Shown here in pieces: positions 1 to 39,845 of a DNA stretch of 64,000 nucleotides. Source of the DNA: Ophelia neglecta (lineage: Eukaryota); contig OZ260664.1 of NCBI GenBank assembly GCA_965285935.1, positions 80,786,001 to 80,850,000 on the forward strand, written 5' to 3'. Under the pieces are notes generated by a model. It saw only the letters and a program-made list of their open reading frames with translations, did no database searches and had not been told where the DNA came from. A program made the position numbers and the translations under genes. How positions within the stretch are numbered: position 1 is the first letter of the stretch; every line of letters starts with the position of its first letter.

Positions 1-1312
1 CTGAAATTCTGTGCTTGAAACTCCCCAACATGTAGATGGCAATAGCAGAGTGCAGAGTCAAATGCCCCTACCTATTCCAGTTGTACCTATAGTTTATACT
101 CTGATTAAACAACCAGGGACAGACCAGCAGGAGGGCTGTTCCCACCAATATTGGACTTTGCATCACTGGATGCGCCAAATAAAGCTTCTGCACTTCAAGT
201 TAAAATGTGGTTTCATGCGATAAGCCAAACCTTCTCAGTGAGGCATGAAAGTACAGTAATATCTCTGAACCAAATTCTGCTGCGGTGAATGTTCTTAGCT
301 AATGGTAACCATGTTTTTTTGGCAGAACTTACTATTCAAATTTTGGAATATTAGAGAAATTAAGAAGCAAAGGCTTGCCAGGTTTCAAAGGAATTAATTG
401 AACTACTTATACAAGGCTTAACAACATTGATTGGCTTTGTAAATTTTTGGAGCCTAATTTTGGCCAACATTTTGTAGCCTGATACGTTACATTTTCCTAT
501 ATAATGTCTTATGACTCGTAGATGTAGATTTTGGGCAATACTTTTTACTGTTTTTATAATTGTTCTGAAATTCAACTATACAATTTTTTAAACATGTGTG
601 CATGGGTGTTAATTTTTAACCTTGTATCTCTCATCCATTTCACTCAGTGTTATAACATGTGATTATAGATGTAGGTTTTTGGCAATACATTTAACTGTTT
701 TTATAATGTTGCTTACCAGTATATTCAATGTTGCAATACAGTTAGTTTCTCCTGTTTATTATTATTACATGATATATAAATATTTGCCCTTAGGAAGTCC
801 ATGTCAGCTTTAAAATGTTTTGACTGGACCAGTATTCTTGGTTTAAAACTATAAGTTGAATTAAAGACACATGCATATAATAATTTATATCTGGAGTAGT
901 CCCTTATATTATGCCGGTGATGTAACTCAAGTGAAAATTTGGCAACAATACTTGTGCCGAGACCTATTAAACCCCTGTTTTCTAAAAGTTTCAATGGAAA
1001 ATGAACCATATTTAAAAATGTGATGTTATATCACATATTCGGGGATCTTTGACACATGCATTTTTACCATATTGCAGTCTTATCTGATTTGCTCCATCAG
1101 AATTCTCGAATATCGGAAGTGTCTTCTAAAAGGTCATTATATTGGATTAGTAGGCATGTTCATAAACATTTGTAAATGGTGGCAAGGGAAGTGTTCACTG
1201 TAAGAATGATATATTTAAGAGGTTCATGTAAGGTATTTTTTCACCAAGGTATTTCCCTCGTAAAGCGGTTTAATGGTATATCTTTACAATTCTTGTAAAC
1301 CATAATGTACTT

Positions 1313-1318
1313 TTTATT
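1313..1318 (-). terminator. Candidate polyadenylation signal (AATAAA) of the mucin gene
   Basis: tttatt on the plus strand, in AT-rich sequence just beyond the end of the decayed mucin-like sequence. Confidence 0.3.
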
Positions 1319-1799
1319 GAAAATACAATTTGCACTATAAAAAACTTTAACAGTTATTCATGTAATGATATGCAATAAAACATTGTTGCAGTAGGTATAC
1401 TTTTTGATGTCATATACATGTACATGCATGATAGACATTCCTGTATAAAAAGGTCCTGCCAACAGCTGGCATAAATGTCAATCTCTCCCAAGCGTTATCG
1501 TGTCCCTTAATGTACCATCTTCATTCTCAGTTGATCACATACATTATCAACCAATATGTCAACTATTTGTGCTCTAGAAGAGGTTGACCTATGATGTGCT
1601 CTCCCAAGTAGAACTACAATTTGGATAAATTGTTCAGTGCTCATAGCAATTGATGCCAAAGGTGCAATTTGAAGTATTCTTTCTCATGAAAACCTGACCT
1701 CAATTCTAATGATTAGTTGATCATGTACTGTGCAGGTCTTGAGATTTGTGACTGTTTTATCATTGATTATCATGTTTAGTTGTGTAGGTAATCTTATTT

Positions 1800-3833
1800 C
1801 ATTACTCTTTGACCCCATTTGATTGATGCTGGCTTAGTTTGTTAGGGGGAAGGGGGTGGGGGGTGGGGGGTGGAGCTGGGCAAGCCACTTTTACTAAGGT
1901 GATAACTTGTTTCATTATTTCCATCTTTTGATTTTGATGTTACATGATTAAATGATGCTCCACTGTGTTTCTCTTTATTTTTGGGCTGACTGAATATGGG
2001 TTGGGTTTTGCCGTAGTTGGATTTTTTGTTCTTGTAACTGTAGAATCTTGATCTTACTTTGTTTTATTAATACTTTTCATTTCTTTGAGCTGTTGAACCT
2101 GTAGACACCTTCCAGTAGTACCTGGTAATCTTTGTACATGTAGAAGATCATTGATGATGATATAACTTGACAAGTGGATAGAAGGCTTGGTACATGTAAT
2201 GTGGTTGTTTGGATTATCATCCTTGTATTTTGTTGTTGTCCAGTGTTGTTGTTATGGGTACTGTTATCATATTAGATGTCCTGGGTTGTTTGATCAGTGT
2301 TAATGCCCCAGTTTGTCGGGTTTTTCTTTCATTATGGTAGAAGAATGGTCAATCCTTGCCATTAAGCAGAGTACCTAGTATTCTTTCCTAGAGGCTGGAA
2401 ATCCAATTGGGAAAGAGATTGACCACTGGAAGATACAAAGCCTGTGTAAGTGGATGATGCCCTAGCACATGTTGTGGATAATTCAGCTAGATGTTATTGG
2501 TCTAATATTAATAATACTATTAGATTCAATGCCGGCTGTTTTGTTGGTGTTTGTGCTCATGCTTGATACTGCTTAGGGTATAAAATATTAAATTGGTAAG
2601 TGAAGGGCCTCTTCTAGAAATAATAGTCAAATTCCACTAGTAAAATACTACCCGGTACCAGTTGTTGTGTGGAGCTGGGGATAGGTGTGTGCGGGCCTGT
2701 GACTGCAGGCTCTTGATGTTCTCAGGACCATTTGATGGTCTATTCTTGATCAATGATTTTGCAGTGTCTGCAAGGTATCCACTCTCGTTTCATTTTTGTA
2801 GGTCACTGGTTGGATGCATAAATCAGAAGGTGGAAAATTCAAAGGTGGTAGTTGAAGAACCTGGGGTTGAAGTCTGCAGGCCAATGCTTATGGCAGAATA
2901 CCCAACAGCAGTTAGAATTTTTTAAGCTGTTTGCTGGAAGAGAACAACCTGTGTTATTCACTTGGCTCCACAATGTTAGGTGTAGAAGCTTCAATATCGG
3001 TGGTGGTGAAATACACGCTACAAGTTGGTAGTCTTCTGGTGGTTGTAGAATATGTTCTAGTAGCGGGTAGCCCGATTCTGTCGGGAGAGTACTCTTCTGT
3101 CGGTGATTGTAGGTTCTATACTAGTGGTTGGACGCCTGGTGGTAGAAGATCCAAGCTTGTCTTTTGAAAAATCTGTGTTTGTGGTTGGTAGCTCACTACT
3201 TAAATTGGATGACTCAGTGCTGTTTGTTGTGGAAATGGTGCGAGTGATACTTGCTGTTGTACAATAAAAGCCCATGGTGGAAGACCCAACACTTGTTCTA
3301 GTATTTTTGATTGCTAACCAATTGCTAGAAGCGGAAGATCCTAATGCGTTATTGTTGAAATTAGCAAAGTGGTTGTCAGCTCAATTTTCGTGGGTGATTG
3401 ATTCGATGTTGGTGGTCGGGCTTAGAATTGCCGTAGCAGAAGATACTGTTTTTGTGACCCCCAGTTAGTACTAGTTGTGAGCGTATCATTGCTTGATGTA
3501 AAACCATTATAAATCATGGAAACCTATCAATTGAGGTGGGAGATCCACTTGTAGTGGTTTGTTATTTGGGGTTTGCATTGTTATTCCCGTGCCACTGGTT
3601 GGAAATGCACTATGGGTGGCAAATGACCACGTGCTAGACGTTTGCGATGTGGCTGAGCTCACAAGTGGTTCAGAGGTAAGGGCAGTTACTTAAACATTAA
3701 TGCTTGATAACTCCCAGCTGTTACTTGTAGTTCCAGCAGGAGGGGTCACAGATTCATTACTGGCTGTAGGAGCAGTTGTGGTAGAAGTTGAAATACCAAT
3801 AGTAGCGGCCAGAGAACCCGCACTTTTAGTTCG
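1800..3833 (-). pseudogene. Decayed mucin (PTS) coding sequence downstream of the current stop, probably now 3' UTR
   Basis: In-frame continuation after TGA: RTKSAGSLAATIGISTSTTTAPTASNESVTPPAGTTSNS...V*VTALTSEPLVSSATSQTSST. Further T/S-rich blocks separated by frameshifts and stops follow (e.g. 3275-3057 TTASITRTISTTNSTESSNLSSELPTT; ~2040-1850 DSTVTRTKNPTTAKP and SGLPSSTPTP). The distal boundary is approximate. Confidence 0.7.
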
Positions 3834-6800
3834 TCAATTATCGAATGTGGTTGGTGAACCAGTACGAGTGTTTGGAGATCCCACTTTCGTGGTTGTAGAT
3901 TCATGTTCAGTCAGTGGTTTAGCAATGGGGGTACTAATGTTATCAACGATCTTGGTTGGGAATCCACTAGTTAAGATCCAAGAGCCAAAGGTAGACCTCA
4001 GGCTGGTAGCTGAATCCCTGTTAGTTATAGTTGAAGATGAAATACTACTGGATGGGCCTTCATATGCTGTTGTCTGAAATCCGACGCTTGGAGTTAGAAT
4101 TACGGTGCTACTGGCTATATGCCCAATGCTTGCAGGCGGTGACACAGAGCCCAACATTGCCGACCCAGTGCTGGTGGTTGGGAACGAGCTTTCATTGCCC
4201 TGAGATTGAAACCACCTGGAAAGCAGCCCGGTACCAGTGGGTGTTGCTTCGTTGCTAGTGGTCGGTGATCCATTGTTAGTGTTTCGAGGAGTAACACTAG
4301 TGGCTTGCAGTTCAGGAGTGGGAGATGAAGACCCAATACCAATTGTTGAAAGTTCAGCACCAGTGGTTGATAATCCAGTGAAAGCAATTGAAGATGCAAA
4401 GGGAATGTTTAAATTTGCAATGATGGTGCTATATTCAATATTTTTGGTTGGAGATGTAGTAGTCGCCTTCGAAGATGCAAAAGCCGCGGCTGAGGATTCT
4501 GCACCACTCGTTAAAGACAAACTGGTACTAGTTTGAAAACGCGTGGGTGTGGTAGGAGATTCACCGATAGTTTTTGGGGGACCAGTACTAGTACTTTGAG
4601 ATTCAAAGTTAGTTAATAAAGATTTAAAGTTAGATGTTTGAGGTTCAACAGTGGTAGGCGAAAATCCAACGGTAGCAGATGGCGTTTCAGAGGCAGATGA
4701 CAGTGATCCAATGGAAGAAGATTGATATCCATTGGTTGTGGACGGAGTTGCCTTAGTAATAGTTGGAGAAAAGTTTATATTAGTTTGGGATCCATTGGTA
4801 GTGATTGGACTGGTAGCATTGGTAGTATAAGTCAGTCTAATGGGAGATTTTGAAGATCCGATAGAAATAATTTGAGATCCAATTGTAGTGGGTTGAGATT
4901 CAATTGTGACAGTGTGAGATCGCATGGTAGAAGTTGGTGGTCTTATGATTGCGGTTTGAGATCCATTTGTATTTGACTGAAATCTAATGTTAGTGGTTTG
5001 ATAGCCAAGAGTCGTAGATGAAAGAACATTCGTAATATTTGTCGGTCTAATTGGAGTTGTTAAATATCCAATGGAGCTTGATTGAGATCCAGTGGTAGTA
5101 GTTGGTGTTTCAGTGCTTCTCATCATAGATCCAATGGTAGTAGATGATTGCGATCTAATAATGGTAGTAGTTGGTAGGCTAGTAACGGTAGTGGGTTGAG
5201 ATTCAGTGGTAGTAGATTGAGATCCAATGTTAGTAGAAGGCCTCCTAAAGATAGTGTTTTGAGATCCAACGGTAGCATTTGGAGTTCCAAAGGTATTAGT
5301 AGATGGCGGTTTGAAAGTAGTGGTAAGAGATCTAATTGTAGTAGATTTAGATCCAATGGTTGTAGGTGGCGGCCTTAAGGTTGGGGTGTGAGACCCAATA
5401 TTGGTTAATGGAGATCCAGTTGTAGAAGATGAGGGTACAACAGAAGCAGTTTGAAATGCAATGGAAGTAGTCGGTGGTTTTCTGGTAGAGTCTCTATATT
5501 CGATGATAGTATATGGAGATCCAATGATAGTAGATGGCGATCTGAAAGTGGTGGTTTGAGATACAACAGTGGTAGATTGAGTTCCAATGTTCGGAGATAG
5601 CGATCCAGTGCTAGTAGTTGTTGGACTAATGGTGGAGCTTTTAGATTCGATGATAGTATATGGAGACCCAATGGTAGTAGATGTAGACCCAGTTGGAGTA
5701 AATGGAGATCTAATGGAAGTAGCTGGCAGTCTTACGGTAGTGATTTGGGATCCAATGGCAGTAGCTGGCAATCTAAATGTATTTGTATGAGATCCAGTGG
5801 CAGTCGGTTGAGATCCAGTCGTAGTAACTGCCGGTCTATTTGTTGTGATATGAGAGCCAGTGGTAGCAGAAGAAGATCCTATTGTACTAGGGGGCGACCT
5901 TAATGTGGAGGCTTGAGATCCAGATATAATGTTAGTGGTTTCATGGCCAAGAGTAGTAGATGAAGGTAAATTTGTTGTAGCTGTCTGTCTGCTCGGAGTT
6001 GTTACAAATTCACTAGTAGTTGATTGGGGTACAAAGGTAGATTGAGGTGCATTGGTAGTAGATTTAGTTTTAGCGGCAGTGGTCGCTGATTTAATGCTAG
6101 TGGTTTGAGATCCAATGTATGTCAATTGAGATCCAGTGGTAGTGGCTGGCTTTCTTATGGTACTCATGACAGATCCAATGGTAGTAGATTGTAATCCATT
6201 AATAGTTGTTGGCAGACTAGAAGTGGTTTGAGGTCCGAAGGTTATAGATGGAGATCCAATGGTAGTAGGTAGCAGTCTTAAGGTGGTATTTTTAGATCCA
6301 ATGGTAGCAGATGGAGATCCAATGGTATTACTAGATGGCCGTATTACAGATGTAGTTTGAGATCTAATGGTAGAAGGTGGCTGTCTAAAGTTAGTGGTTT
6401 CAGATGCAATGGTAGTAGGTAGCAGTCTTAAGGTGGTATTTTTAGATCCAATGGTAGCAGATGGAGATCCAATGGTATTACTAGATGGCCGTATTACAGA
6501 TGTAGTTTGAGATCTAATGGTAGAAGGTGGCTGTCTAAAGTTAGTGGTTTCAGATGCAATGGTAGTAGATTGAGATCCAACGGCAGTAGGTGTCCATTGA
6601 AAGGTAGTGGTTTGAGACTCAGTGGTAGTATAAAGAGATTGAATGGTAGTGGTTTCAGATCCTATCATAGTGATTTGAGAGTCAGTGCTAGTATATGGAG
6701 ACATTATGACAGTAAATGGGGTTCTAATAGTAGCGCTTTTAGAGCCAATGGTGTTGAATGGAGATCCAGTTATAGTAAATGGGGGTATTATCGAAGTGGT

Positions 6801-9800
6801 TTGAGATCCAATGGAAGTAGATTTAGATGGGGGTATAACAGAAGTGGTTTGAGATCCAATGGTAGAATTTGGTGGTCTAATGGGAGTGGTTTGAGATCCA
6901 ATGGAGGTAGGTTGCGATCTTATGGTAGAAGTTTGAGATGCAATGGTAGTAGATAGAGATCCAATGGCACTAGGCAGCGATCTTAACGGCATGGTCTCTG
7001 ATCCAAATATAGTAGTAGATGGAGAATTGTTGATAGTAGATGGTGGTGTAACCGATGTGGTTTGAGATCCAGTGGAAATAGATGATGATTTGAAGATACC
7101 AGTATATGGCAGTATTACGTAAGTGGTTTGAGATCCAATGGTACTAGATGGCGAACTTATGGTAGTAGTTGGAGATCCAATAGCAGTAGTAGATGGAGAT
7201 CCGATGATAGTAGATGGCGTTATTACAGAAGTGGTTTCAAATCCAGTGGAAATACTTGGCGGTCTAAGGGTAGTGGTTTGAGATCCAATGGTAGTAAATT
7301 GAGATCCACTGGTAGTAGTTGGATGTCTAAAGGCAGTGGTTTCGTATCCAGTGGTGGTGGTTTGAGATTCAATTGTAGTATGTGGCGGTCTAAATGTAGT
7401 GGTTGGAGATCCAATGGTAGTAGGTGGCGGTCTCAAGGTAGTGGTTTGAGATCCAGTAGTAGTAGGTGGCAGTCTAAGGGTAGTAGATTGAGATCCAGTG
7501 CTAGTAGGTGGCGGTTTAAAGGTAGTGGTTTGAGATCCTATGGTAGTAGATTGAGATCCAGTGGTAGTAGGTGGCGGTCTAAAGGTAGTGGTTTGAGATC
7601 CTATGGTAGTAGATTGAGATCCAGTGCTAGTAGGTGGCGGTCTAAAGGTAGTGGTTTGAGATCCTATGGTAGTAGATTGAGATCCAGTGCTAGTAGGTGG
7701 CGGTCTAAAGTTAGTGGTTTGAGATCCTTTGGTAGTAGTTTGAGATCCAGTGCTAGTAGGTGGCGGTCTAAAGGTAGTGGTTTGAGATCCTATGGTAGTA
7801 GATTGAGATCCAGTGCTAGTAGGTGGCGGTCTAAAGTAAGTGGTTTGAGATCCTTTGGTAGTAGTTTGAGATCCAGTGCTAGTAGGTGGCGGTCTAAAGG
7901 TAGTGGTTTGAGATCCAATGGTAGTAGTTTGAGATCCAGTGGTAGTAGTTTGAGATCCAGTAATAGTAGGTGGCAGTCTAAGGGTAGTAGTTTGAGATCC
8001 AGTGCTAGTAGGTGGTGGTCTAAAGGTAGTGGCTTGAGGTCCGATGATAGTAGATTGAGATCCAGTGCTAGTAGGTGGCGGTCTAAAGGTAGTGGTTTGA
8101 GATCCTTTGGTAGTAGATTGAGATCCAGTGCTAGTAGGTGGCGGTCTAAAGTTAGTGGTTTGAGATCCTTTGGTAGTATTTTGAGATCCAGTGCTAGTAG
8201 GTGGCGGTCTAAAGGTAGTGGTTTGAGATCCTATGGTAGTAGTTTGAGATCCAGTGGTAGTAGTTTGAGATCCAGTGCTAGTAGCTGGCGGTCTAAAGGT
8301 AATGGTTTGAGGTCCGATGGTAGTAGTTTGAGATCCAGTGCTAGTAGGTGGCGGTCTAAAGGTAATGGTTTGAGATCCAATGGTAGTAAATTGAGATCCA
8401 GTGCTAGTAGGTGTCGGTCTAAAGGTAATGGTTTGAGATCCAATGGTAGTAGTTTGAGATCCAGTGCTAGTAGGTGTCGGTCTAAAGGTAGTGGTTTGAG
8501 ATCCAATGGTAGTAGTTTGAGATCCAGTGCTAGTAGGTGGCGGTCTAAAGGTAATGGTTTGAGATCCTATGGTAGTAGATTGAGATCCAGTGCTAGTAGG
8601 TGGCGGTCTAAAGGTAGTGGTTTGAGATCCTTTGGTAGTAGTTTGAGATCCAGTGCTAGTAGGTGTCGGTCTAAAGGTAGTGGTTTGAGATCCAATGGTA
8701 GTAGTTTGAGATCCAGTGCTAGTAGGTGTCGGTCTAAAGGTAGTGGTTTGAGATCCAATGGTAGTAGTTTGAGATCCAGTGGTAGTAGTTAGAGATCCAG
8801 TGGTAGTAGTTTGAGATCCAGTGGTAGTAGTTTGAGATCCAGTAATAGTAGGTGGCAGTCTAAGGGTAGTAGTTTGAGATCCAATGGTAGTAGTTTGAGA
8901 TCCAGTGCTAGTAGGTGGCGGTCTAAAGGTAATGGTTTGAGATCCTATGGTAGTAGATTGAGATCCAGTGCTAGTAGGTGGCGGTCTAAAGGTAGTGGTT
9001 TGAGATCCTTTGGTAGTAGTTTGAGATCCAGTGCTAGTAGGTGTCGGTCTAAAGTTAGTGGTTTGAGATCCTTTGGTAGTAGTTAGAGATCCAGTGCTAG
9101 TAGGTGGCGGTCTAAAGGTAGTGGTTTGAGATCCAGTGGTAGTAGTTTGAGATCCAGTGGTAGTAGTTAGAGATCCAGTGCTAGTAGGTGGCGGTCTAAA
9201 GGTAGTGGTTTGAGATCCAGTGGTAGTAGTTTGAGATCCAATGGTAGTAGTTTGAGATCCAGTGGTAGTAGTTAGAGATCCAGTGGTAGTAGTTTGAGAT
9301 CCAGTGGTAGTAGTTTGAGATCCAGTAATAGTAGGTGGCAGTCTAAGGGTAGTAGTTTGAGATCCAATGGTAGTAGTTTGAGATCCAGTGCTAGTAGGTG
9401 GCGGTCTAAAGGTAATGGTTTGAGATCCTATGGTAGTAGATTGAGATCCAGTGCTAGTAGGTGGCGGTCTAAAGGTAGTGGTTTGAGATCCTTTGGTAGT
9501 AGTTTGAGATCCAGTGCTAGTAGGTGTCGGTCTAAAGTTAGTGGTTTGAGATCCTTTGGTAGTAGTTAGAGATCCAGTGCTAGTAGGTGGCGGTCTAAAG
9601 GTAGTGGCTTGAGGTCCGATGGTAGTAGTTTGAGATCCAGTGCTAGTAGGTGGCGGTCTAAAGGTAGTAGTTAGAGATCCAGTGGTAGTAGGTGGTAGTC
9701 TAAGGGTAGTAGTTTGAGATCCAGTGGTAGTAGGTGGCGGTATCAAGGTAGTGGCTTGAGGTCCAGTAATAGTAGGTGGTAGTCTAAGGGTAGTAGTTTG

Positions 9801-11922
9801 AGATCCAGTGGTAGTAGGTGGCGGTATCAAGGTAGTGGTTTGTGATCCACTGGTAGTATGTGGCGGTCTAAAGGTAGTGGATTGAGATCCTATGGTAATA
9901 AATTGAGATCCACTGGTAGTGGGTGGTGGTCTAAAGGTAGTGGATTGAGATCCTATGGTAGTAAATTGAGATCCACTGGTAGTGGGTGGTGGTCTAAAGG
10001 TAGTGGATTGAGATCCTATGGTAGTGGTTTGAGATCCAATGGTAGTATGTGGCGGTCTAAAGGTAGTGGATTGAGATCCTATGGTAGTAAATTGAGATCC
10101 ACTGGTAGTAGGTGGTGGTCTAAAGGTAATCGTTTTATATCCAGTGGTAGTGGTTTGAGATTCAATGATAGTAGGTGGTGGTCTAAAGGTATAGGTTTGA
10201 GATCCTATGGTAGTAGATTGAGATCCACTGGTAGTAGGTGGAAGTCTAAAGGTAGTGGTTTGAGATCCAGTGGTAGAAGGGGACAGTGTAAGGGAAGTGG
10301 CTTGAGATCCCGTGGTAGTAGATTGAGACCCACTGGTAGTGGGTGGCGGTCTAAAGGTAGTGGATTGAGATCTCGTGGTAGTAAGTGCTTTTCTTACTTT
10401 AGTGGTTTGAGACCCAATGGTAGTAGATGGTGGCCCAATGGTATTAGTAGATGGTGGTAAAACAGAAGTGGTATGAGAATCAATGGTACTAGGTGGTGGT
10501 CTAAATTCAGTGGTTTGAGATTCAATGGCAGTATATCTTTCATTGGATATGTCTGTAGATATAATTGTAGTGTTTAGAGATTCAAAGGTCGCAGTGAGTG
10601 CTTTGATGGTTGATATTGATGAATACGATGCAACGCTAAAATGTTTATTGTTAATGGTTCGGGATTCAATCAGTTTAGTTTGAGATCCTGTTGTAGTGGT
10701 TGTTGAATCAATATTTCTTGTTGGATATTCATGTTTTATTGTTGGAGATTCCATGATTAAAGTTGTTGATGCAATACTAGTAGTGGGAGTCTCGGGGATG
10801 GTGTTTGGAAATTCAGTCGTATATGATGTTGTTGATCCGATGGATGTTGATGGAGATGAAACATCAGTGGCTGGAAATTCACTGGACATAGTGGGATAAC
10901 CTTTTGTAGAGGTTGAAAACCCAATGTAAGAAGTAGGTGATTTGAATTGAGTGGATTGATATGCAGTGGCAGTGGTAGTGGTTGATGATCCAGCAGTTAG
11001 GGTCGTAGTAGGTGTTTTTGATCCAATAGACGTAGTTCTGGATTGAGTGCTTATAGGCGATCCCCCAAATGTAGAGGTTGGAGTAGTGGATTGAGAGCCA
11101 ACATCTGTGGTTTGGGGTTCAAATGCAGTAGGCGACTCATTTACAATTAACGGGGACACAGCTGTAGTTGTTACCAACCCAACGTTTGTGGGGGAATCGA
11201 AACTGGTGGTTTGTAGTTCTTTGGCAATGGTTGGAGAACCGCGTCTTGTGGTTGGAGACATTGGTGACGTTCCCTGAATAATGGTGGGGGCTTCCGTGGT
11301 TGAAGTGTCCTTCTTTGAAGCCGTCATTATGTCGTGTGTTAAAGCTGTGGACACTATGTCACTATCAGTGGTTGCCCCGGTCAGTTGAGCTGTACTCGGA
11401 CTCATTTTCTCTGTCGAAGTTAATATATCCTTGTTTGTTGAGCGGGATCTTCTAGAGAGTGTAGAAGTAGCACCATAAGTGTTCAATGACCTGCCAGCAG
11501 TGGATACTTGGTCGGTCGAGGTGAATGGGTACTCGCTACCGGTCCCTTTGGAAATCAATGAAGCTGGTACTGGTGTAAAAAGTTTGGTATTCAAATTAAG
11601 TGTTGTGATTGAAGACTGGGCCCAAGCTACCTCTGAAGTTGGGGACGCCGCCACCACCGATGATTGTGTAGAGAGCTGCAACATTGTGGTTAATATAATA
11701 CTTTCTGTTCGTGATGTGGTTACTCTAGCGATGGATGTTGTCCGATACCCCGTAGATTCCAAGACTCCGACAGAGATGCTTTTCTTGTCGATTTTATATA
11801 GTTTCAAAACTGATAGAAAGCCCTCGCTATTTCCTAATTTGGTTGTACTTTCTTTCACAACTCTAGATAGCGGTGTTGCTTGGTGAAAATGAATTTCCAT
11901 AACGACAATCACAGAACCGCGT
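3834..11922 (-). CDS. 8.1-kb terminal exon: SEA C-terminal half (GSVIV motif) plus Thr/Ser/Pro-rich mucin domain
   Basis: Part of the 2711-aa ORF. Acceptor ccatcatacag precedes 11922. Extreme T/S/P/G content; TGA stop at 3836-3834. Confidence 0.92.
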
Positions 11923-14900
11923 CTGTATGATGGAGAAAGTAATTTATCATAAAAGAAATTTAGCATCACGACTGGTACGAGAACACGGTAAAACTATAAA
12001 TGATTAAATGATTTAATAGCAATACTTCTCTACCTGAGGTTGCTGACCAAACTCTTGTGGAAAACATCGGAAAGGCTGCCACTGGAAAACACCAACGATA
12101 CCTGAAACAGTTTACTCATTAAAGACAGCGGTCAAAGAAAGCGTTGACATTCCGAAATCGAGTACGGTGCCTACACAACTCTGCACCAGTGTCTCAATTT
12201 ATTGGCACCAATTTTACTTACAATTTTCACCACATTCACTGTGAACATAACATAAGCATGTGAGGCTGTGTCATTGAGGTCCTCCGTGTATTCCAAGTTG
12301 AGCACCTTGAAAGAAAGGCTAAATACTCTACTCTCAGGATCTGAAAGGTTCATCATACAAGATGGATGTTGTCGTTAACTCCATCGTTAATATGCATACT
12401 CTTTAAAAAAAATCTGAATCGTTCGTTTAACCCAACACCTATTTCATTTTCCACACCCAACTATTAATTAGTAAGCTATTGATAAAGAACCTAAATGCCC
12501 TTGAAATACACCCTGACAACATATTACACGATTACCTGTGACTGGAGTAGTGCCATGATCGTCAGCCACGTCGGGTGGTGCTGCCACGGATGATTTGGCT
12601 GGAATGATGTGACGGATTGACTGACTGTGAAAAGCTATGAAAGAAGCAACTAGCAGCCATGACGCTGACTTACAGCGATCGGTTATTCTAAAATAAAAGT
12701 AGCTCAAATACATCGCTTAAGATTCGTTTTTCTTTCAAATTAGCAAGAATGTATTAGAAACATGCATAGGTTTCTTTTCTTCCATTTCCATTTATTATTT
12801 TTAAGTGAACATACCCACGTAGTACACAAAGTAGCCCAAAGAAGCAGCCGCTCCAATGACACACAACGCACACAGAGTGGCAAACAAAATCTGGGTATGA
12901 AAGAGAACATTTTATTTCTTATGAAAACAATTCAATTTTTCGAAAGTTGTTAATATTCTTAGGCAACAAAATAGACTGATTCTGTCGAAATAGGAATAAG
13001 GCCTTTGCACTTACTTGAAAGCCTAGCCTATTTCTGTTAAGTCGTCTTTCTTGTGGCCAGGCGCTTGCCCTGTACAGGAAGGGACCCCCAGAATACCGTT
13101 CTCGAGATCGAGTGTAAGATTCCGTGGAGGATGTGTGGTGCCAGGACTGGAGACCAAATGGGGGGCCAGTCTCCCAACGCCAAGGAACTGACCCAAACTG
13201 CCTCTCGTATATCGGCTACACACAAAAAATTATTATAGAGAACACAATTTGAAGCAAAAAGAAAATATCTGTAAACTGCATTTATAATATTTAGTGTACA
13301 TGAATGATAGTACAACAGAGTACCGATGTGTCGGTCTGCCAAACCTTCTATGAAGACGCACCGTTACTTATGGAGAAGGGGCCATTCCTTTCCAATAAAA
13401 GTTTGTTACGATAAACTTAAATCAAAAAGTCAACATTATCTTTTCCTACATTTGGTCCAAACAAACATTTTCTTCTTCAGAAATTGAGAAACAAACTTTT
13501 TAAAATCGAATATGTCCCGCAAGTGCTTTTTATCTTAACCCCCCCCCCCCCTTCCCCATTATCTACGGGTGCGTCCCCATGCAAGAACAGTTTTTGCAAA
13601 TATCAAAGATTGCCATTGTGATATCGTTCACTGAACAAAGTAACCAAAGAATAACTTTAGGAGACGTTATTAATAATTATGCGCAAGTCAAGGGGCTGAA
13701 GTTTAGAATAGGGCCTAGATAAATGTATGCCATACATATCAATCCCGACAAGGCAAGCATACCGCCCAAATAGGTCAAGCCCGTTTGTATATCGTAGATA
13801 GTAAAACTGGTAAATTTTCAGTCTGGATACAGGAGTATAAAAATTTATTTGCGATATTTCTAGCAGTTTATTTTACTTATGATATAATATTTCATATAGT
13901 CATATAAAAGGTATAAAGATGAATACCAAAGATCCACTCTCCACTGAAGTATAGACACACTCCCGCCAGTACTGTAACATCCTGGCGTCGTTGAACTGTC
14001 CAGCATATGCATCTTCGCCATTTTCTTGTGGCGACGCTGTAAATATATCACCGGAGAAATTCTGAATCGCACAGGTGTGATTACGAAAATTATCGACAAA
14101 AAGTTCATTTCCTTAGACAAGTGTATGTAGGACAGACCATTTAACATTTCCAAAGTGTTGGCCAAAATGATGACACCGATGTAATAACCAAAATGTCCTA
14201 GATTTTAATCCTTTGAGATTTGGCGATAAAACCCAGCTAGTAGACAATTCAAAATTATTAGTCTGGATGTATCCATCGGCCATAATTAATTAGGAACAGT
14301 CTTCTCCGAACCCACAATAGGCAAATACACCGCATATAAAAGTATCAGGGTAAAGAATATTATAGCAATTACGATTAGAAGAGTCAACATTTCCATAATG
14401 CGAGTCAAACTACTGAACTAACGAGTCAGTTGCAAACTCTAGTCCAAAACCAAGCCATATGAGAGTCTATGATAAACTAGGCCCTCTTTATGTCATTTAT
14501 TTTCTTTATGAATATAAAACTGCAGTTGCGCTTTAAATGATGTTAACCCTGTCAAGTGAACCATGCATGATTTTAAAGAGCTGCACACGTGCAACTGAAG
14601 ACGGCCTGCATGCAGAAGTCTGAAATCGAGCCTAGGCCTATGTTGGTCGAGGCATGTAAAATTGGCTGACGCGTTGCCTTCATGGTAATCTTTGACTATA
14701 CCTATGCCTATATTTAAAGTTTCAAAGATTTAAACCGATTGCAAACTAAACATCCGTCTAACTGTCTCAAATAGCGACATATGCAGCGGCCAAGTACAAT
14801 CTCTGATCAGTATCGAGTGTAAATTTGCATAGTTAATTCATTTTAATAAAGTTCTTTTAAAATCAATTTAAACGAATTCCAAGATTTTCTTGTTGGTTGG

Positions 14901-16125
14901 CCGTGTCATATTTTATACTGTCACAGAATCTCGTCAAAAGCAACTTAGGCATAAATAGTTTAAGGCATGAGTGATATTTTACGCTTAACCTAAGGCTTGG
15001 GGGCCACGTGCATGTCTTTCATAATGGTATACCATCTTATGTTGCAGATAAGTGTTCAGTCACAATCAAAGCGTAACTGGTTCACTTTGATATTTTACAT
15101 CTGGATTATCAAAGAGATTGAAAACCCCCCTCCTCTTTAATGAGAAAGGTCCTATCCTTCACTTGTCTTGTGGTTTTCGGAGTCCCGGTATCCGGCGCTG
15201 CGCTGTCTAAATATCGTGACTTATTACTTCCAACTAAAGGCAATTTTACATAATGGCAGTTTGCTTCCTCGGCCTTATAAACTCTCTTGTTTTCCTATGT
15301 ACATTATAAGTACACTCGTATCATTCATCCATCCGAGCCAGGTTCTTTCTTTACTCAATGTCAATGACATTCTCATTGATCCATTCATAAACCCGTCTGT
15401 CGCTGGTTCCTTCGCTCATGTTTTCTTTCAGGATCACTTGAAGAACACACTCACGCTCACTTCCACACTGTACCAATGCCCGCCTTAGATCCGTACACAA
15501 TCCTTCTCGCATCTTAAGGTCTACTGGGTTTAACTAATGTAGTTGACTTTACTTTGTTTCAATACTTACACCAAGAAAATTAAAAGCCGCCTTAAAATTT
15601 ACAAGTCAGTGAACAATTGCCTTGAATAAGTAAATCTACCTTTTAAACTTTTTCGGAGACTTCTTTCGAAAGTCATTTATACAAAATGTTACAAAGGAAA
15701 CTTTTGATGCTAAAAGGCAGCATCCGTTACAAGAAATCCCAAAATTAATATGATACCGATTATTTACAATAGTATTATAACCCAGATATTGGTCTTTTGG
15801 CTTTTTAAACCTATACTTAGCATTCTTAGCTGTCTGGTTCTAGTTGTATACAAAAGTAAACGTTTCGGTACCTACCGTAACCAAAAGTAGGCCGAGAGGG
15901 TCTTCGACTAAATCCTTTTGGTAAGTTCAGAGAAGTTCCTCCGAGTCCCGCGCTGGCGCTCTGTTCATGGGTCCTTTGTGGGAATTGGGGATTGGGGGTA
16001 TGCGATGGTGCTTGGCTACTCGGGGGAGCACTCATCGGCATGTAGTGGCCAGGCCAACCCCTGAACCAAAAACGACCGGAGTTACTCAGTGGGCTGGAGC
16101 TGATAGAGGGCAACTCCATCGACAT
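3834..16125 (-). CDS. Type II transmembrane SEA-domain mucin-like protein (~3,000 aa), multi-exon
   Basis: Phase-compatible exons: 16125-15876 (MSMELPS...TFGY), optional 15523-15455, 14036-13927, 13215-13015 (ends ERRLNRNRLGFQ), 12890-12815 (TM helix ILFATLCALCVIGAAASLGYFVYYV), 12634-12536, 12340-12222 and 12101-12034 (SEA: RVFSLSFKVLNLEYTEDLNDTASHAY...SLVSNL), 11922-3834 (RGSVIVVMEIHF then the PTS tail). Without the optional exon the sum is 9012 nt, a multiple of 3. All introns are GT-AG. The 5' exons are less certain than the TM, SEA and PTS exons. Confidence 0.8.
6257..6566. repeat. 150-nt (50-codon) tandem duplication in the diverged mucin flank
   Basis: ggtagtaggtagcagtcttaaggtggtatttttagatcca at 6261 and 6411; the peptide TTIASETTNFRQPPSTIRSQTTSVIRPSSNTIGSPSATIGSKNTTLRLLP occurs twice. 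Confidence 0.9.
7250..10400 (-). repeat. Coding VNTR of the mucin: mosaic of 21-nt (TTTGSQT-type) and 36-nt (TTFRPPPTSTGS-type) modules, commonly as a 57-nt unit
   Basis: Near-identical recurrence of gagatccagtgctagtaggtggcggtctaaaggtagtggtttga and gagatcc(a/t)atggtagtagtttga. Higher-order duplication with 483-nt offset (identical plus-strand ORFs 8811-9086 and 9294-9569). Confidence 0.95.
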
Positions 16126-20456: not shown

Positions 20457-21746
20457 TTAAATCGTAGCAGTGGATACACTATCTGGAACCTCTGAAGTAA
20501 CAGATGGGGTGGGCGTTCTTGTGGTAAATGACGTTCCACTGCTTCCTCCATAATTGCTATCATATTTCAAATTCTTCCCCTGACTACATCCCAATACTCT
20601 CCTGGCGTCGCTGCGGAACTTGGAGCCGCCGATGCAGTAGAGAAAAAAGTTGACACTGCTATTAGTGATAAACATTTTCTGGGTGAAGTGGTAGGTAAAG
20701 AAGTAGGTAGCGAACGGTTCTGGCTCGACCGGAGGCATATAGATAGAATAGATGAAGTCCATGATCCAGGCTGGGACGGTCAGTAACAGAAAACCAATAC
20801 AGGTGGCCAACAGCAACACCATCATCTGGGCTTCTCGAGGGTCTTTTTTTACATCGAAAGGGTTCTTACTGGTGCTGTCCGCCCCGCTGCCGATTTTTTC
20901 ACGGCGTTTCCGATTTGCAACGACCACCGTACGGATGATGACGATGTTGGTGATCGAAAGGACTGAGTGTACAACAAGGAATATTAAGCAGAGTGTGACC
21001 CAGGAGTAGACGATGGAGAACATATCAGTAGGGTCCGACCAGATTAGACAGATGTTCTCTGGTTCTACCACGTCCATGGTGTACCATATTGGAGTGTGAA
21101 ACAAGACGGAAAACAGAAAGCCGAGAGCCACTACCAGCTTCGTGCGAGACATGGTCACCCAGACTCGAGCCTTGAGGGGTTTAGCTACAGCTAACAATCG
21201 ATCAATGGTCAGCGCTACTATCAAATATTCACCAAATGTTGAAAATGTTGTAAAAAACACGCCAGGAATTTTACATGTCCACGTGCTCATGTAGTTCTCG
21301 TGTACCGTCAAAGCCCAGTAGAGGACACTTACAGTGAGGACAATATTGTCCGAGAAAGCTAAAGCCGCCAAATACAAGGAACAGGGGAGTCTCTTGTTAG
21401 CTTTTAATGTCATCACTCTGAATGATATGCTGTTTCCGACCCAACCAATAACGATGACCACTGGCAGATAATATTTCTGCATATTCACCCCGATCTTAAA
21501 CCTCAATGTGCCTGCTACTTTATTTAAAAACTCTAACTGGGGATCTTCAGTTAAAGCATCATTCCTGGTTTTGAGGGTTGCGTCTTCATTTTCCGACCCA
21601 GCCGTGATCTCCAATCTCACAGTCATGGATGTTGGTGAACCATCAAAGCTACCGCTGGTACTGTTGGAATTATCATATAAGCCAAAAGTTGGCCTTACCA
21701 TCACTTGAAATAAGAATAGAATGAGGTACCACTGAGATTTTTCCAT
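20457..21746 (-). CDS. Class A (rhodopsin-like) peptide GPCR, FMRFamide/sex-peptide receptor-like (GPR139/142-type) family; coding region intronless
   Basis: Seven hydrophobic helices: TM1 GWVGN, TM2 LAALAFSD, TM3 LTIDRLLAVAKPL, TM7 NSSVNFFLYCIGGSKFR. The first ATG in the ORF is at 21746 (MEKSQWYLILFLFQV). Probable 5' UTR intron with acceptor near 21848 and donor gtaagt near 22140. Confidence 0.9.
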   Translation of the reverse strand: MEKSQWYLILFLFQVMVRPTFGLYDNSNSTSGSFDGSPTSMTVRLEITAGSENEDATLKTRNDALTEDPQLEFLNKVAGTLRFKIGVNMQKYYLPVVIVIGWVGNSISFRVMTLKANKRLPCSLYLAALAFSDNIVLTVSVLYWALTVHENYMSTWTCKIPGVFFTTFSTFGEYLIVALTIDRLLAVAKPLKARVWVTMSRTKLVVALGFLFSVLFHTPIWYTMDVVEPENICLIWSDPTDMFSIVYSWVTLCLIFLVVHSVLSITNIVIIRTVVVANRKRREKIGSGADSTSKNPFDVKKDPREAQMMVLLLATCIGFLLLTVPAWIMDFIYSIYMPPVEPEPFATYFFTYHFTQKMFITNSSVNFFLYCIGGSKFRSDARRVLGCSQGKNLKYDSNYGGSSGTSFTTRTPTPSVTSEVPDSVSTATI

Positions 21747-24352
21747 GGTCTTCAACAACAACGTAAAGCTCGTTCTGTTACATTTACGTCTAAATGTAAT
21801 GCCCTGGTCGGCCTTGGTCCAACAGTACGAGAGTTCGATTCTATCACCTGAATCAGATACACCAAATTTTAGTCCTGGTTTGACCACACTTTCACTAAAA
21901 GCATAATTAAATTAGTGAATCTATCAGCAGACCTGCCATAAATTATAATAGGCATAATTATAGCGAATCATTCCATTTGGTATTATGTACAGGTACTAAC
22001 GTATTCTGCTACTGGGAGTTTTACTCATCGTTATAGTGGTTATAGACACCATCGATCAGGGCGAAAATCAAATGAAACCCTTGGTGGCCATGGTCTAGGT
22101 CTATACAAAGTTATCAGAATCAAGCAAAAAATTGACTTACATGTATCCTTGGCTCTCACTCTTAATGCTCTGGAAATGACAGTCGGTGTGTTATGAGAAA
22201 ATCAGCAGACGAGACGGGCGTCGCCGTGTGAATGATGGTGCCAAGCCCAAGATGATGACACGCTGCTCCGCTGACGTTCTTATATTGCTTGACATTTGAT
22301 GTGTTGTAAACTCATGTCGTTTGCTTGCACTTTGATTTGTTAATTTGATATTATCACATCGTATAGTAATAATCACCAGGTTTTGTGAGTAGCAAAATAT
22401 TACATATAAAAACGTATTGGTGAACATTTGAGAGACTAACTTTAATAGTTATAATGAAAATAACTATATGGCCTGACAAAGGTTGCAACAGAAATACTAT
22501 AATTGGGGGCTACAAACATGAAGAGTTTACTACCTGTAATTTCATCACGCACCCCATAAAAGCGGCGGGTGGCCGAATTTAAGCATTATAAGCCTACACA
22601 ATCACCATATTTAGGGCATGGTATACATTGTACCTTTAGTGCGTGCATATGATCTATAGCCATTATGTGCATGGCAACGGATTGCACTGAAGACCTAGGA
22701 ATGTACTTACTCTTATAATCAAGCCTGCAATTTAAGGTTTCTAAATTTATTACATGGATTAACCTATATTTTCCAGAACACCCGCCTTTGTGACTATATG
22801 TTTACTTTGTCATAGCCTACCAATTCAGCCCCTGTAATGTTTCTTTGTCAATGATTTGTATCTGAGACGGTCAGTTGAATAAATCACGCGAACTGCTCAA
22901 AGAGAATTTACTCTTTTGTTATCCATTTGTCATGGTAACAAATAAAACGGTGAACTTTGAACGTTAATAATTGCTCTATATGACGTTTTTTTCTGAACAA
23001 TTTATTGTCACCTATAGTTCTTCACATCATCATAGATTATTCGGTTATTGCCGAATGAAATAGGCCTAAGATTAACTTTATTAACAACAATTTGAACAAC
23101 ATAGATCTATTATGTTGTCAAATTTGCCAACCAATGTGCCAATGCCCTTTTGGTAATTGGGCAGAAGTTTGGCCCTTATGTTGTACATAGGTAGATCAAA
23201 GTGAGAACCAACTACACTTGTTTCATGAACAAATGTATTCAATATCACTCGATACCGACACCGATTCATGTGCCCAGTCATTCAAAAGCCGCAAACCCTC
23301 GTAGATTGGGAATCGAAACAAGGCTTCGGAACTTTTCAGGTATTCAAGCCCGACAAATTCCAGCATCTTCCCAATATTAACTCCGAGAATTGTATAGACT
23401 AGCCATCCGTCTCCAAATCGATATCAATAATTAATAAACTGCATACGCCCGACAACTTTCAGGTATGGGGTCAATATCATGAATCTGCCCCATCTTCAAG
23501 CTTCTTCACAATAAATATATCTAATAGTTCGGACAAATCTAACGAACTTAACACCGCCTATTTGCCCATACCCCAGGCGACTTCACACTGGTAAACCCCG
23601 TTAGTCCGACAATGACCGGCCTGCCCATCCAGCTCCATCCATTCAACGTATATCCAGTCCGATAAATCAAGAACTATGTGTTGGGGGTAAAAGCTCAATT
23701 GTCGTCTGTTAATGAACTCTCCAATCTGCTAGTTACTTGCCGCCCCCGATAGAAGTATACTGCATGGGAGGGGGTATGCAGTGGAGAAAATACGCAGGGG
23801 GGGGGGGGAGTACCCAGGGGAGGAAGTAACACGTGAAGGGTGTACCCAGGGGCGGGGGTACGCAGGCTTAGTCATAACTATAGTCATATTAATACATTAT
23901 GTTTTTAGGGTGTCGGGAATTTATTAGCGCCCTTCCAACAACAATGAGCAGCCCTTTGCTGCATAAGCAGCCTCAGCTATGCTGGATATATCTGGCTCCT
24001 GTATTCAGGGCTGGGGTGTTTAACACTGGGCTGCGAGGGAACAATAGAATAACCCAGTGAGAATAACCCAAACCTAGTCTATGTGACAACCTGCTCTCAG
24101 TGCAGAGCCAGAGCAGCAGGGTGGTATCATACAGAGCGGTGGCACTTATCATACTGTTGCACTCTCTAGATTTGAGCAATGCCTATTAACTCTTTAGACA
24201 CAGTCGTGTAGACCTACTAGAAGATATTTTTTAAATCTGACAACATTTGACATTCTAAACAAATTATTAAGTCAAGGAACGCAACATTGAAGGGTTAAGC
24301 TTTTGCTTTTGAAAGTCAGTGGAAGGTATTCCCGGAAAGTTCCCTATTAAAC

Positions 24353-38800: not shown

Positions 38801-39845
38801 ATGCAGGACCAGCTGGCTGAGACCAAGGAGAGGTACAGGCAGGCCAGTGGAGGTGTCACAGAGAGAACCAGAGTACTAGCTGAAGTAAGCCATCACACCT
38901 GATATGTTATAGATGTGATTGGATAAGTCTCAGAGCTTTTGTATGATAATAGGTTTATATGTGCCAAACAGAATTGTAATGAATGTGATGGCTATATTTT
39001 AAAAATGCTTTGTCTTAATGATCTAATTAAAATGCATAGCTAATAAAGGAAACCCCTTAGTCTTAGAATAAATATATAGCTTTTTTTTGGATCCTTATAC
39101 TTAAAAAAGGGGACTTTGAAATTACAATGCAAGACGCTTCCAAAATTTGGCACAAAATTTACTTATTTTATTGATTTATAAAGGATGAATCTTGACTTTA
39201 TGCATTTATTCACATCATAATATAGCAGTGCACCTTACTACTCGCAGGTAACTGAGGAACTCGAAGGGATCAAGCACCAGATGGACGACCGAGGAACCAG
39301 CATGACTGATGGAGGTACGTGATGGCTTTTATGCTGTAGATATTCTTAAAAACTAGAATTTTAACTTCTATTTTGTCTCAAAAACCATCTCGCTCTGTGG
39401 CCTCAGTCGCATAGGGCAGTCACAGAGGGTAGGTTCAGATGGTACAGTAAAACCTGCCTTTAAGACAACCTCTATATTCAGAGCACTTGGCAATTCAGAC
39501 CACTTGCATGAAGACCATACAGCATTCTTTCTTTCAATATAGTCCCAGAAGGGGAGTCTCTAAGGCCAGTCCCCAAGGGACAGTTCTTTAGAAACACTGT
39601 ACAATGTATTAATTATTGTATATTCTGATTTTTAAAAAAACTAATTAATAATTCCAGCTCCATTGGTAAAGATAAAACAATCCATTCAGAAGATTAAAAC
39701 AGAGATAAACCAGATGGACATCAGAATAGGAGTACTCCAGCATGTACTACTACAGGCCAAATTAAAAGACAAAAACGACCAGAATAGAACGATAGCATGC
39801 GGCGACGACATGGATGACGACTACAACAATTTTAAGGGATTCTAG
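35802..39845 (+). CDS. IFT57: Intraflagellar transport protein 57 (HIPPI), 10 coding exons
   Basis: Exons approx. 35802-35962, 36508-36616, 36855-36908, 37012-37130, 37412-37580, 38015-38137, 38430-38600, 38789-38884, 39248-39314, 39658-39845. Diagnostic peptides [105 protein letters not shown]. Likely non-coding first exon with donor gtatgt at ~35202. Confidence 0.95.
36116..36290. mobile_element. Pogo/Tc1-like MITE remnant
   Basis: Starts cagcggtccctgtgatgtagggccc, the inverted counterpart of the 29331-29355 end; shared internal sequence. Confidence 0.65.
37585..37835. repeat. Degenerate ~25-nt minisatellite in an IFT57 intron
   Basis: Recurring (ttca)ca(c/t)agtgtta(g/a)at(g/a)gag motif. 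Confidence 0.55.
39443..39601. mobile_element. Old pogo/Tc1-like MITE
   Basis: tacagtaaaacctgcc ... acactgta ends (TA-CAG...CTG-TA). Confidence 0.5.

What the first reader, a model, noticed from the sequence alone, without database searches (positions are those of the whole stretch)
1800..3836. Mucin tail dying from its end: ~2 kb of decayed PTS coding sequence past the stop
Seen: after TGA (3836-3834) the same frame gives 47 more T/S-rich codons, then TAA (3692-3690), ~40 more T/S-rich codons, and then a series of frameshifted T/S-rich blocks that get more degraded toward ~1800. Inference: because the anchor and SEA are N-terminal and nothing essential lies at the C-terminus, nonsense mutations in this last exon are tolerated and escape exon-junction-dependent NMD. 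The protein would then be ratcheted shorter while old coding sequence becomes 3' UTR, a length-control route that type I mucins lack. The first stop is in the leaky UGA-C context, so readthrough is also possible.
Basis: partly seen in the sequence, partly recalled or inferred. Interest (0 to 1): 0.7.

Follow-up and report, generated by a model that had tools for sequence, protein, structure and literature searches.

The report
Fossil mucin tail behind its stop
Behind the stop codon of a predicted 3,000-residue membrane mucin gene lie about 1,500 bases that still read like broken mucin code, likely the leftover of a longer tail that was cut off by a new stop codon and is now decaying as untranslated RNA.

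Summary
Largely real, mechanism overstated. An 8-exon model gives a 3,003-aa protein: N-terminal anchor, SEA domain, then a cysteine-free 2,644-aa Pro/Thr/Ser tail in the last exon. After TGA 3836-3834 the frame runs 47 codons to TAA 3692-3690, then breaks into frameshifted blocks. Mucin-like codon structure is clear to about 2935 and probable to 2335; base skew lasts to about 1970; codon signal is absent by 1800. The TGA is no assembly error: both alleles of one sampled individual carry it. The second allele's listed indels are in frame inside the ORF (3 of 3) and not outside (0 of 8). A 120-bp dispersed repeat sits inside the tract. So this is former coding sequence, now untranslated. But one truncation fits the first 1.3 kb (p 0.11-0.18); a multi-step ratchet, NMD escape, length control and readthrough are unshown. 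No orthologue or RNA was available. Stop gains near C-termini are known; the long visible fossil and the inverted mucin layout are the unusual parts.

The parts
15876..16125 (-). Predicted exon 1 with ATG; start of the predicted cytoplasmic N-terminus
   Evidence: GT-AG model with matching phases, no internal stop; no RNA support
13927..14036 (-). Predicted exon 2 (weak donor GTATTC)
13015..13215 (-). Predicted exon 3, ends in an Arg-rich stretch just before the membrane helix
12815..12890 (-). Predicted exon 4: the single strong hydrophobic helix (aa 188-206), type II signal-anchor
   Evidence: Kyte-Doolittle peak 2.26; basic residues on its N-terminal side
12536..12634 (-). Predicted exon 5, short linker
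12222..12340 (-). Predicted exon 6, start of the SEA domain
   Evidence: Pfam PF01390 E 6.6e-5, 23.4 bits on this exon alone, cut-off 26.4
12034..12101 (-). Predicted exon 7, middle of the SEA domain
   Evidence: phase fit; no Pfam hit alone
3834..11922 (-). Coding part of the last exon: SEA end with GSVIV (aa 310), then a 2,644-aa cysteine-free PTS tail (T 29%, S 17%, P 10%) to TGA
7122..10383 (-). Homogenised core tandem array, 21-bp base period with higher-order periods
6252..6568 (-). Recent in-frame 150-bp duplication (99% match)
3834..3836 (-). Present stop, TGA followed by C; carried by both alleles
   Evidence: X1 record 6 and X2 record 16 identical; X3 record 22 has 6 differences, none in the codon
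3693..3833 (-). 47 in-frame PTS codons behind the stop (what readthrough would add)
3690..3692 (-). Second in-frame stop, TAA; state in the second allele unknown
2791..3689 (-). Decayed PTS coding sequence with about 5 inferred frameshifts and several stops; second allele adds -5 (3259-3264) and -8 (3031)
2671..2790 (-). Dispersed repeat of about 120 bp inside the tract; at least 39 other scored copies, best 80-84% identical
2335..2670 (-). Distal decayed PTS sequence; codon z 3.6, TGGATCT-like motif still enriched
1973..2334 (-). Zone with mucin-like C-over-G skew but no significant codon signal: an older layer or the original short UTR
1974..2068 (-). Two AATAAA hexamers (2068, 1979) at the skew change point; candidate poly(A) signals
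   Evidence: use not tested
1313..1318 (-). Distal AATAAA in T-rich context; candidate poly(A) signal
   Evidence: use not tested

Best explanation
The 1.5 kb behind the TGA keeps mucin-type codon structure broken by stops, frameshifts and an inserted repeat, and is likely the former end of the protein's PTS tail, cut off by a stop codon gained in the last exon and since decaying neutrally as presumed 3' UTR. Shown: the stop, the frame continuity, the codon signal, the shared TGA, frame-keeping indels in the ORF and frame-breaking ones outside. Inferred: the protein is a type II membrane mucin whose anchor and SEA domain come first, so losing about 460 codons (up to about 580 if the skewed zone counts; 13-16% of the old length) removes only more unstructured glycosylated chain and costs little. 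Inferred: one main truncation roughly 0.06-0.12 substitutions per site ago explains most of the tract, possibly with one later step (the first 270 nt) or one earlier step (2335-1970). Untested: transcription of the tract, the poly(A) site and NMD.
For: Codon structure far above shuffles and above 664 control windows, on the gene's strand more than on the other. The first post-stop window scores like the ORF's own last 600 nt (23.0 bits against a mean of 18.5). Both alleles carry the TGA although they differ at 6 of 159 letters around it. Second-allele indels listed: +3, -3, -6 in the ORF; 8, 5, 5, 1, 1, 1, 13, 2 outside (Fisher p 0.006; p 0.10 with only the three nearest; 12 of 22 indels were shown). 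A dispersed repeat sits inside the tract and is 76-84% like six other copies, which fits the simulated age. A convergent BTBD17-like gene ends 1.7 kb beyond the window start, leaving little room for more exons. The ORF tail shows no amino-acid constraint between alleles: 6 synonymous, 24 non-synonymous, 0 nonsense of 30 listed, 26-29% synonymous expected. No cysteine in the tail.
Against: No orthologue, so direction and order of events have no outgroup; PMC4494051 (passages) shows that calls of subtraction without an outgroup can be wrong. The gene model has no RNA support. Read in the old frame, post-stop allele differences are more often synonymous than expected (12 of 27, p 0.02-0.05), which hints at late or residual constraint, although 9 of the 27 lie behind a frameshift of the second allele and 13 differences in this region were not displayed. 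DNA-level similarity of the tract to the ORF is weak (5 blastn hits, E 0.003-0.024). The age estimate uses the ORF's last 600 nt as a stand-in ancestor and an assumed indel spectrum.
Confidence: 0.8

Rival explanations
1. Serial ratchet or conveyor: repeats are born in the homogenised core, age as they are pushed outward, and are shed from the free C-terminus by successive stop gains, so several old stops lie in a row. (A stronger form of the best explanation, not exclusive of it.)
For: Motif density falls along the gene: 21.8, 11.7, 5.7, 6.7, 0 per kb; leave-out scores fall inside the ORF from 50-77 bits to 10 at the last window tested; first post-stop window younger at p 0.03-0.07 and six windows heterogeneous at p 0.054; skew outlasts codon signal by about 350 nt; core array and a 99% duplication show recent growth.
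Against: Five windows (3833-2415) fit one age, p 0.11-0.18, and the fitted ages are not in order (0, 0.15, 0.03, 0.06, 0.1). Both alleles share the first stop, so no step is seen segregating. Degenerate flanks around a homogenised core are usual for tandem arrays (own knowledge).
Confidence: 0.3
2. Functional stop-codon readthrough keeps the first 47 codons partly coding.
For: UGA-C in both alleles; UGA-C gives 3-4% basal readthrough in mammalian reporters (PMC4615788, passages); no frameshift in the first 270 nt; 5 of 9 listed differences there are synonymous (p 0.06-0.09).
Against: Context is TGA-CGA or TGA-CAA-ACC, none of the CUAG, CGG or CAAUYA motifs; C is 24% of local bases; gain is 47 residues of the same composition on 3,003; explains nothing beyond 3690.
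Confidence: 0.07
3. The blocks are alternative coding exons reached by splicing out of the giant exon.
For: A 107-codon open block (3380-3060) lies in the ORF's frame; a few donor-like words may exist in the exon (not scored in a usable way).
Against: The second allele breaks that block by a 5-nt deletion; other blocks are 13-50 codons; a simple consensus scan printed no donor-like or acceptor-like site.
Confidence: 0.05
4. The tract was never translated: repeat DNA spread past an old stop, or the signal is only base composition.
For: No outgroup; weak DNA similarity to the ORF.
Against: No tandem repeat is found below 4595; the signal survives dinucleotide shuffling and continues in the exact ORF frame.
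Confidence: 0.06
5. Stops and frameshifts are assembly errors.
For: The three runs may be the sample the assembly was made from.
Against: Separately assembled contigs match the window letter for letter over 3739-4070, 3641-3768, 3122-3381, 2990-3148 and 2269-2858, and the divergent second allele also has the TGA.
Confidence: 0.01

Closest known systems
Stop-codon gains ('subtractions', premature termination polymorphisms) in Drosophila and yeast (PMC3342867, abstract; PMC4494051, passages)
   Same: A new stop shortens the C-terminus and turns coding sequence into 3' UTR; such genes are weakly constrained.
   Different: Those are mostly young polymorphisms near the C-terminus; here about 460 codons are lost in both alleles and old enough to hold frameshifts and an inserted repeat.
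Vertebrate and cnidarian transmembrane mucins, MUC1 type (PMC9080433, passages)
   Same: PTS domain, SEA domain with a GSVxV-type motif (motif recalled), one membrane helix.
   Different: Order is inverted: anchor, SEA, PTS with a free C-terminus instead of signal peptide, PTS, SEA, anchor, tail. A stop in the PTS of MUC1-type mucins would remove the anchor; here it does not.
Type II transmembrane serine proteases (enteropeptidase, matriptase, TMPRSS11; recalled)
   Same: N-terminal cytoplasmic part, signal-anchor, SEA domain next to the membrane.
   Different: No LDLa, CUB or protease domain; the ectodomain is all PTS and free of cysteine.
Drosophila glue proteins Sgs4, Sgs5, Eig71Ee with premature stops (PMC6352337, passages)
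   Same: Repetitive glycoprotein genes that tolerate C-terminal nonsense alleles; the authors also raise readthrough.
   Different: Secreted, short, with a conserved C-terminal part that is lost; alleles are polymorphic and show no decay behind the stop.

Membership tests
MUC1-type transmembrane mucin | Long Pro/Thr/Ser domain with tandem repeats | tested here: met
   2,644 aa, T+S+P 56%; array 7122-10383
MUC1-type transmembrane mucin | SEA domain | tested here: inconclusive
   PF01390 E 6.6e-5, 23.4 bits on one of three exons, under the 26.4 cut-off; GSVIV in place; Atlas lead 0.76 only. The spliced domain was not scanned.
MUC1-type transmembrane mucin | Type I order: signal peptide, PTS, SEA, membrane helix, cytoplasmic tail | tested here: not met
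   Only strong helix at aa 188-206, before SEA and PTS; none at the C-terminus
MUC1-type transmembrane mucin | Dense O-glycosylation and SEA self-cleavage | not testable with these tools
   needs protein
Type II transmembrane serine protease | Signal-anchor followed by SEA | tested here: met
   (SEA below cut-off, see above)
Type II transmembrane serine protease | C-terminal trypsin-like domain | tested here: not met
   No Pfam hit in the last 788 aa; no cysteine in the tail; minus-strand ORFs of 70 aa or more in the next 50 kb, inspected by eye only, show none, and a convergent gene follows
Programmed stop-codon readthrough gene | Leaky UGA-C tetranucleotide | tested here: met
Programmed stop-codon readthrough gene | Extended motif (CUAG, CGG, CAAUYA) | tested here: not met
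   TGA-CGA-ACT and TGA-CAA-ACC; motifs from PMC4615788
Programmed stop-codon readthrough gene | Conserved coding signature between first and second stop | tested here: inconclusive
   3 synonymous of 5 listed differences in 3833-3693, up to 5 hidden; no orthologue
Pseudogene | Disabling lesions in the body of the gene | tested here: not met
   3,003 open codons over eight GT-AG exons; 3 of 3 listed ORF indels in frame

The most novel reading that the evidence does not exclude
An inverted (type II) SEA mucin works as a repeat conveyor: new repeats arise in the core array while the oldest units are shed from the free C-terminus by successive stop gains, and the 3' UTR keeps a dated, layered record of the shed tails. 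That would be a mode of mucin length turnover closed to type I and gel-forming mucins, and a natural clock for coding-to-UTR decay.
Probability: 0.3. Interest if true: 0.6.

Novelty: new variant of a known kind. Interest (0 to 1): 0.4.

Why it matters
Protein shortening by stop gain is known in bulk, but the lost piece is usually short or unrecognisable. Here about 460 codons remain readable, two alleles differing by about 6% allow the loss of frame constraint to be seen directly, and an inserted repeat gives an independent age bracket. With a few related species the locus would test whether mucin tails are trimmed once or repeatedly and whether a 1.8-2.5 kb UTR made this way triggers NMD. The anchor-first SEA mucin layout was not found described, but one key survey (Lang et al. 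2007) could not be read.

Tried and rejected
Orthologue searches found nothing: two word-based searches with the SEA half (33 and 17 candidates, none at E 10 or better; only proteins of 1482-4717 and 278-888 aa), phmmer against 1.84 billion representatives (0 at E 0.001), Atlas (best 0.83, SEA cluster 0.76, leads only). No paralogue in the own genome by protein, DNA or repeat pattern (9 of 9 matches in this gene); the PF01390 genome search also failed in its controls and says nothing. No RNA holder listed. The state of TAA 3692-3690 in the second allele could not be read: 14 of 54 differences were not displayed. The 8-nt deletion seen did not show, so a missing indel row is no proof of sharing. 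The 107-codon block as a constitutive exon: rejected, broken in the second allele. The 1800 boundary as coding signal: rejected (z -0.2 at 2033-1734; a poly-C run at about 1876-1840 inflates skew and was masked). Papers: ten searches listed no report of a decayed mucin PTS in a 3' UTR or of an anchor-SEA-PTS mucin; the library lacks most subscription papers. Lang et al. 2007 (PNAS mucin survey, recalled) was not held. PMC7556508 (passages) gave no close precedent. No supplements were read. Earlier findings of this scan: none near this place or on this topic.
Full report
The gene. The window is G000:C7:80786001-80850000, in a 762-Mb animal-type genome. On the minus strand eight exons with GT-AG borders and matching phases (16125-15876, 14036-13927, 13215-13015, 12890-12815, 12634-12536, 12340-12222, 12101-12034, 11922-3834) give 3,003 codons with no internal stop. 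This model is read from sequence; no RNA supports it. It has one strong hydrophobic helix at aa 188-206 with arginines on its N-terminal side, which points to type II topology (inference), a SEA domain split over three exons (PF01390 E 6.6e-5, 23.4 bits on one exon, cut-off 26.4; GSVIV at aa 310), and a 2,644-aa cysteine-free tail with 29% Thr, 17% Ser and 10% Pro. The tail has a homogenised core array at 7122-10383 and degenerate flanks. A BTBD17-like gene on the other strand ends 1.7 kb beyond the window start, so the giant exon is most likely the last one. The gene is single-copy by protein, DNA and pattern searches.

The observation. After TGA 3836-3834 the frame gives 47 codons (20 T/S), TAA 3692-3690, then 60 open codons of which about 42 are PTS-like. 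A codon model trained on 11741-10398 and 7100-4437 and run with frameshifts allowed finds blocks at 3833-3563, 3561-3516, 3514-3451, 3449-3089, 3088-2956 and onward. In non-overlapping 300-nt windows z against dinucleotide shuffles is 8.3, 3.8, 5.2, 2.8, 3.6, 2.0, -0.2, 1.8, 0.1 from 3833 to 1134; the opposite strand gives 2.4, 1.8, 2.9 for the first three and 1.2 or less after. Of 664 control windows 0 reached 4.9, 6 reached 3.8, 9 reached 3.6, 20 reached 2.9 and 68 reached 1.9. The ORF's TGGATCT word (one mismatch allowed) occurs at 21.8, 11.7, 5.7, 6.7 and 0 per kb in 7100-4437, 4436-3837, 3833-2785, 2784-2335 and 2334-1885. C-over-G skew stays near 0.2 to a change point at 1973 (2193-1552), next to AATAAA at 2068 and 1979; another AATAAA lies at 1318. 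So about 1.5 kb is recognisable old coding sequence, a further 350 nt keeps only the composition, and no codon signal reaches 1800.

2790-2671 is a dispersed repeat: 40 scored matches including the window's own, from 134 candidates, with sharp borders shared among copies. The window's copy is 76-84% like six other copies, which are 76-84% like each other apart from two close pairs. PTS signal resumes behind it. On a star-like family history this suggests about 10% divergence since insertion (inference).

Second allele. Three runs of one sample hold the stretch as contigs; they cover intergenic DNA and show two alleles, so they look like DNA (inference; kind not on record), and may be the assembly's own sample. 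Contigs identical to the window cover both stops, which excludes assembly error there. A contig of the other allele (X3 record 22, 3739-3897) differs at six places but not in the TGA; its context is TGA-CAA-ACC. The five differences around the TAA were among 14 of 54 not displayed. Of 22 indels in 1-6200, 12 were displayed: +3, -3 and -6 in the ORF, and 8, 1+4, 5, 1, 1, 1, 13 and 2 outside it; Fisher p 0.006, or 0.10 if only the three nearest are used. The contig tables also imply about 480 extra letters in the other allele at 2343/2349 and about 180 at 1451/1453 (derived from record lengths). Among 57 listed substitutions (40 of 54, 17 of the 40 shown of 256), the ORF tail has 6 synonymous, 24 non-synonymous and 0 nonsense against 26-29% synonymous expected: no amino-acid constraint, only frame. 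Against my reading, the post-stop region read in the old frame has 12 synonymous of 27 (p 0.02-0.05); 9 of these 27 lie behind the second allele's own frameshift, so they cannot reflect present coding in that frame.

One cut or a ratchet. I mutated the held-out last 600 nt of the ORF at set divergences and scored it like the real windows, with the repeat removed. Best ages for successive 260-nt windows are 0, 0.15, 0.03, 0.06, 0.1, 0.2, then noise. One age of 0.06 fits four or five windows (p 0.11, 0.18); with the sixth p is 0.054; the first window is higher than the rest at p 0.03-0.07. The decay gradient also begins inside the ORF (50-77 bits falling to 45 and 10 in the last two windows). 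The data therefore need one truncation, allow two or three, and do not show a ratchet. The stand-in ancestor and indel spectrum are assumptions.

Mechanism. Shown: stop, frame continuity, codon signal, shared TGA, loss of frame constraint, repeat insertion. Inferred: with anchor and SEA first and no terminal domain, a nonsense change in the last exon removes only 13-16% of an unstructured chain and can drift. No exon junction lies downstream in the model, so junction-dependent NMD would not be triggered, but a long-3'UTR mode is also described, with weak support in transcriptome-wide data (PMC6173133, passages), and the UTR would be 1.8-2.5 kb; this is untested here. UGA-C is the leakiest context, 3-4% in mammalian reporters (PMC4615788, passages), so some basal readthrough is plausible, but the extended motifs are absent and only 47 residues would be added. 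Nothing shows selection for length, and the 99%-identical 150-bp duplication at 6252-6568 shows that the tail also grows.

Known and new. Stop gains that shorten proteins are common: 438 genes in Drosophila (PMC3342867, abstract), 'subtractions' in yeast, with a warning that direction needs an outgroup (PMC4494051, passages), and premature stops in glue genes (PMC6352337, passages). Transmembrane mucins are described with PTS first and SEA plus anchor last (PMC9080433, passages); this gene inverts that order and is not a member of that family as defined, though it likely works like one. Ten paper searches listed no decayed PTS in a UTR and no anchor-SEA-PTS mucin, but Lang et al. 2007 was not held. 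No orthologue was found. Verdict: a real, unusually long and legible case of a known process in an unusual mucin layout; interest 0.4.

Noticed in passing
window 11922-16125 (-): Anchor-first (type II) SEA mucin layout with a 187-aa predicted cytoplasmic part holding several tyrosines; no homologue found.
   Followed up: partly
window 2349-2863 and 3122-4057: Very divergent alleles: 55 differences and 12 gap letters in 515 bases at 2349-2863; 15 in 260 and 13 in 190 bases nearer the stop. May be an old balanced polymorphism or just a very heterozygous species.
   Followed up: partly
window 2671-2790; L002-L008: Unclassified dispersed repeat of about 120 bp with a sharp start; L006 carries it in both orientations about 340 bp apart.
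   Followed up: partly
window 20457-21911 (-): Intronless rhodopsin-type GPCR (PF00001 E 1.8e-23) directly upstream of the mucin gene.
   Followed up: no
window 42325-46384 (+): Ty3/gypsy-type retroelement by eye: a 1,163-aa ORF with gag, protease, reverse transcriptase and integrase-like parts and an overlapping 223-aa ORF.
   Followed up: no
window 49078-62847 (+): Sacsin-like gene by eye, with a 3,277-aa single ORF.
   Followed up: no
window 38430-38879 (+); L010-L013: IFT57-like exon in the window and a WDR19/IFT144-like gene in the downstream 50 kb, both named from recall.
   Followed up: no
L009 2650-8312 (+): BTBD17-like gene (BTB and TRAF_BTBD17 hits) convergent with the mucin, with a broken LINE-type reverse transcriptase in an intron (by eye).
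   Followed up: partly
window 14279-14389 (-): Short ATG-started hydrophobic ORF of about 36 codons in predicted intron 1; could be chance or an alternative start.
   Followed up: no
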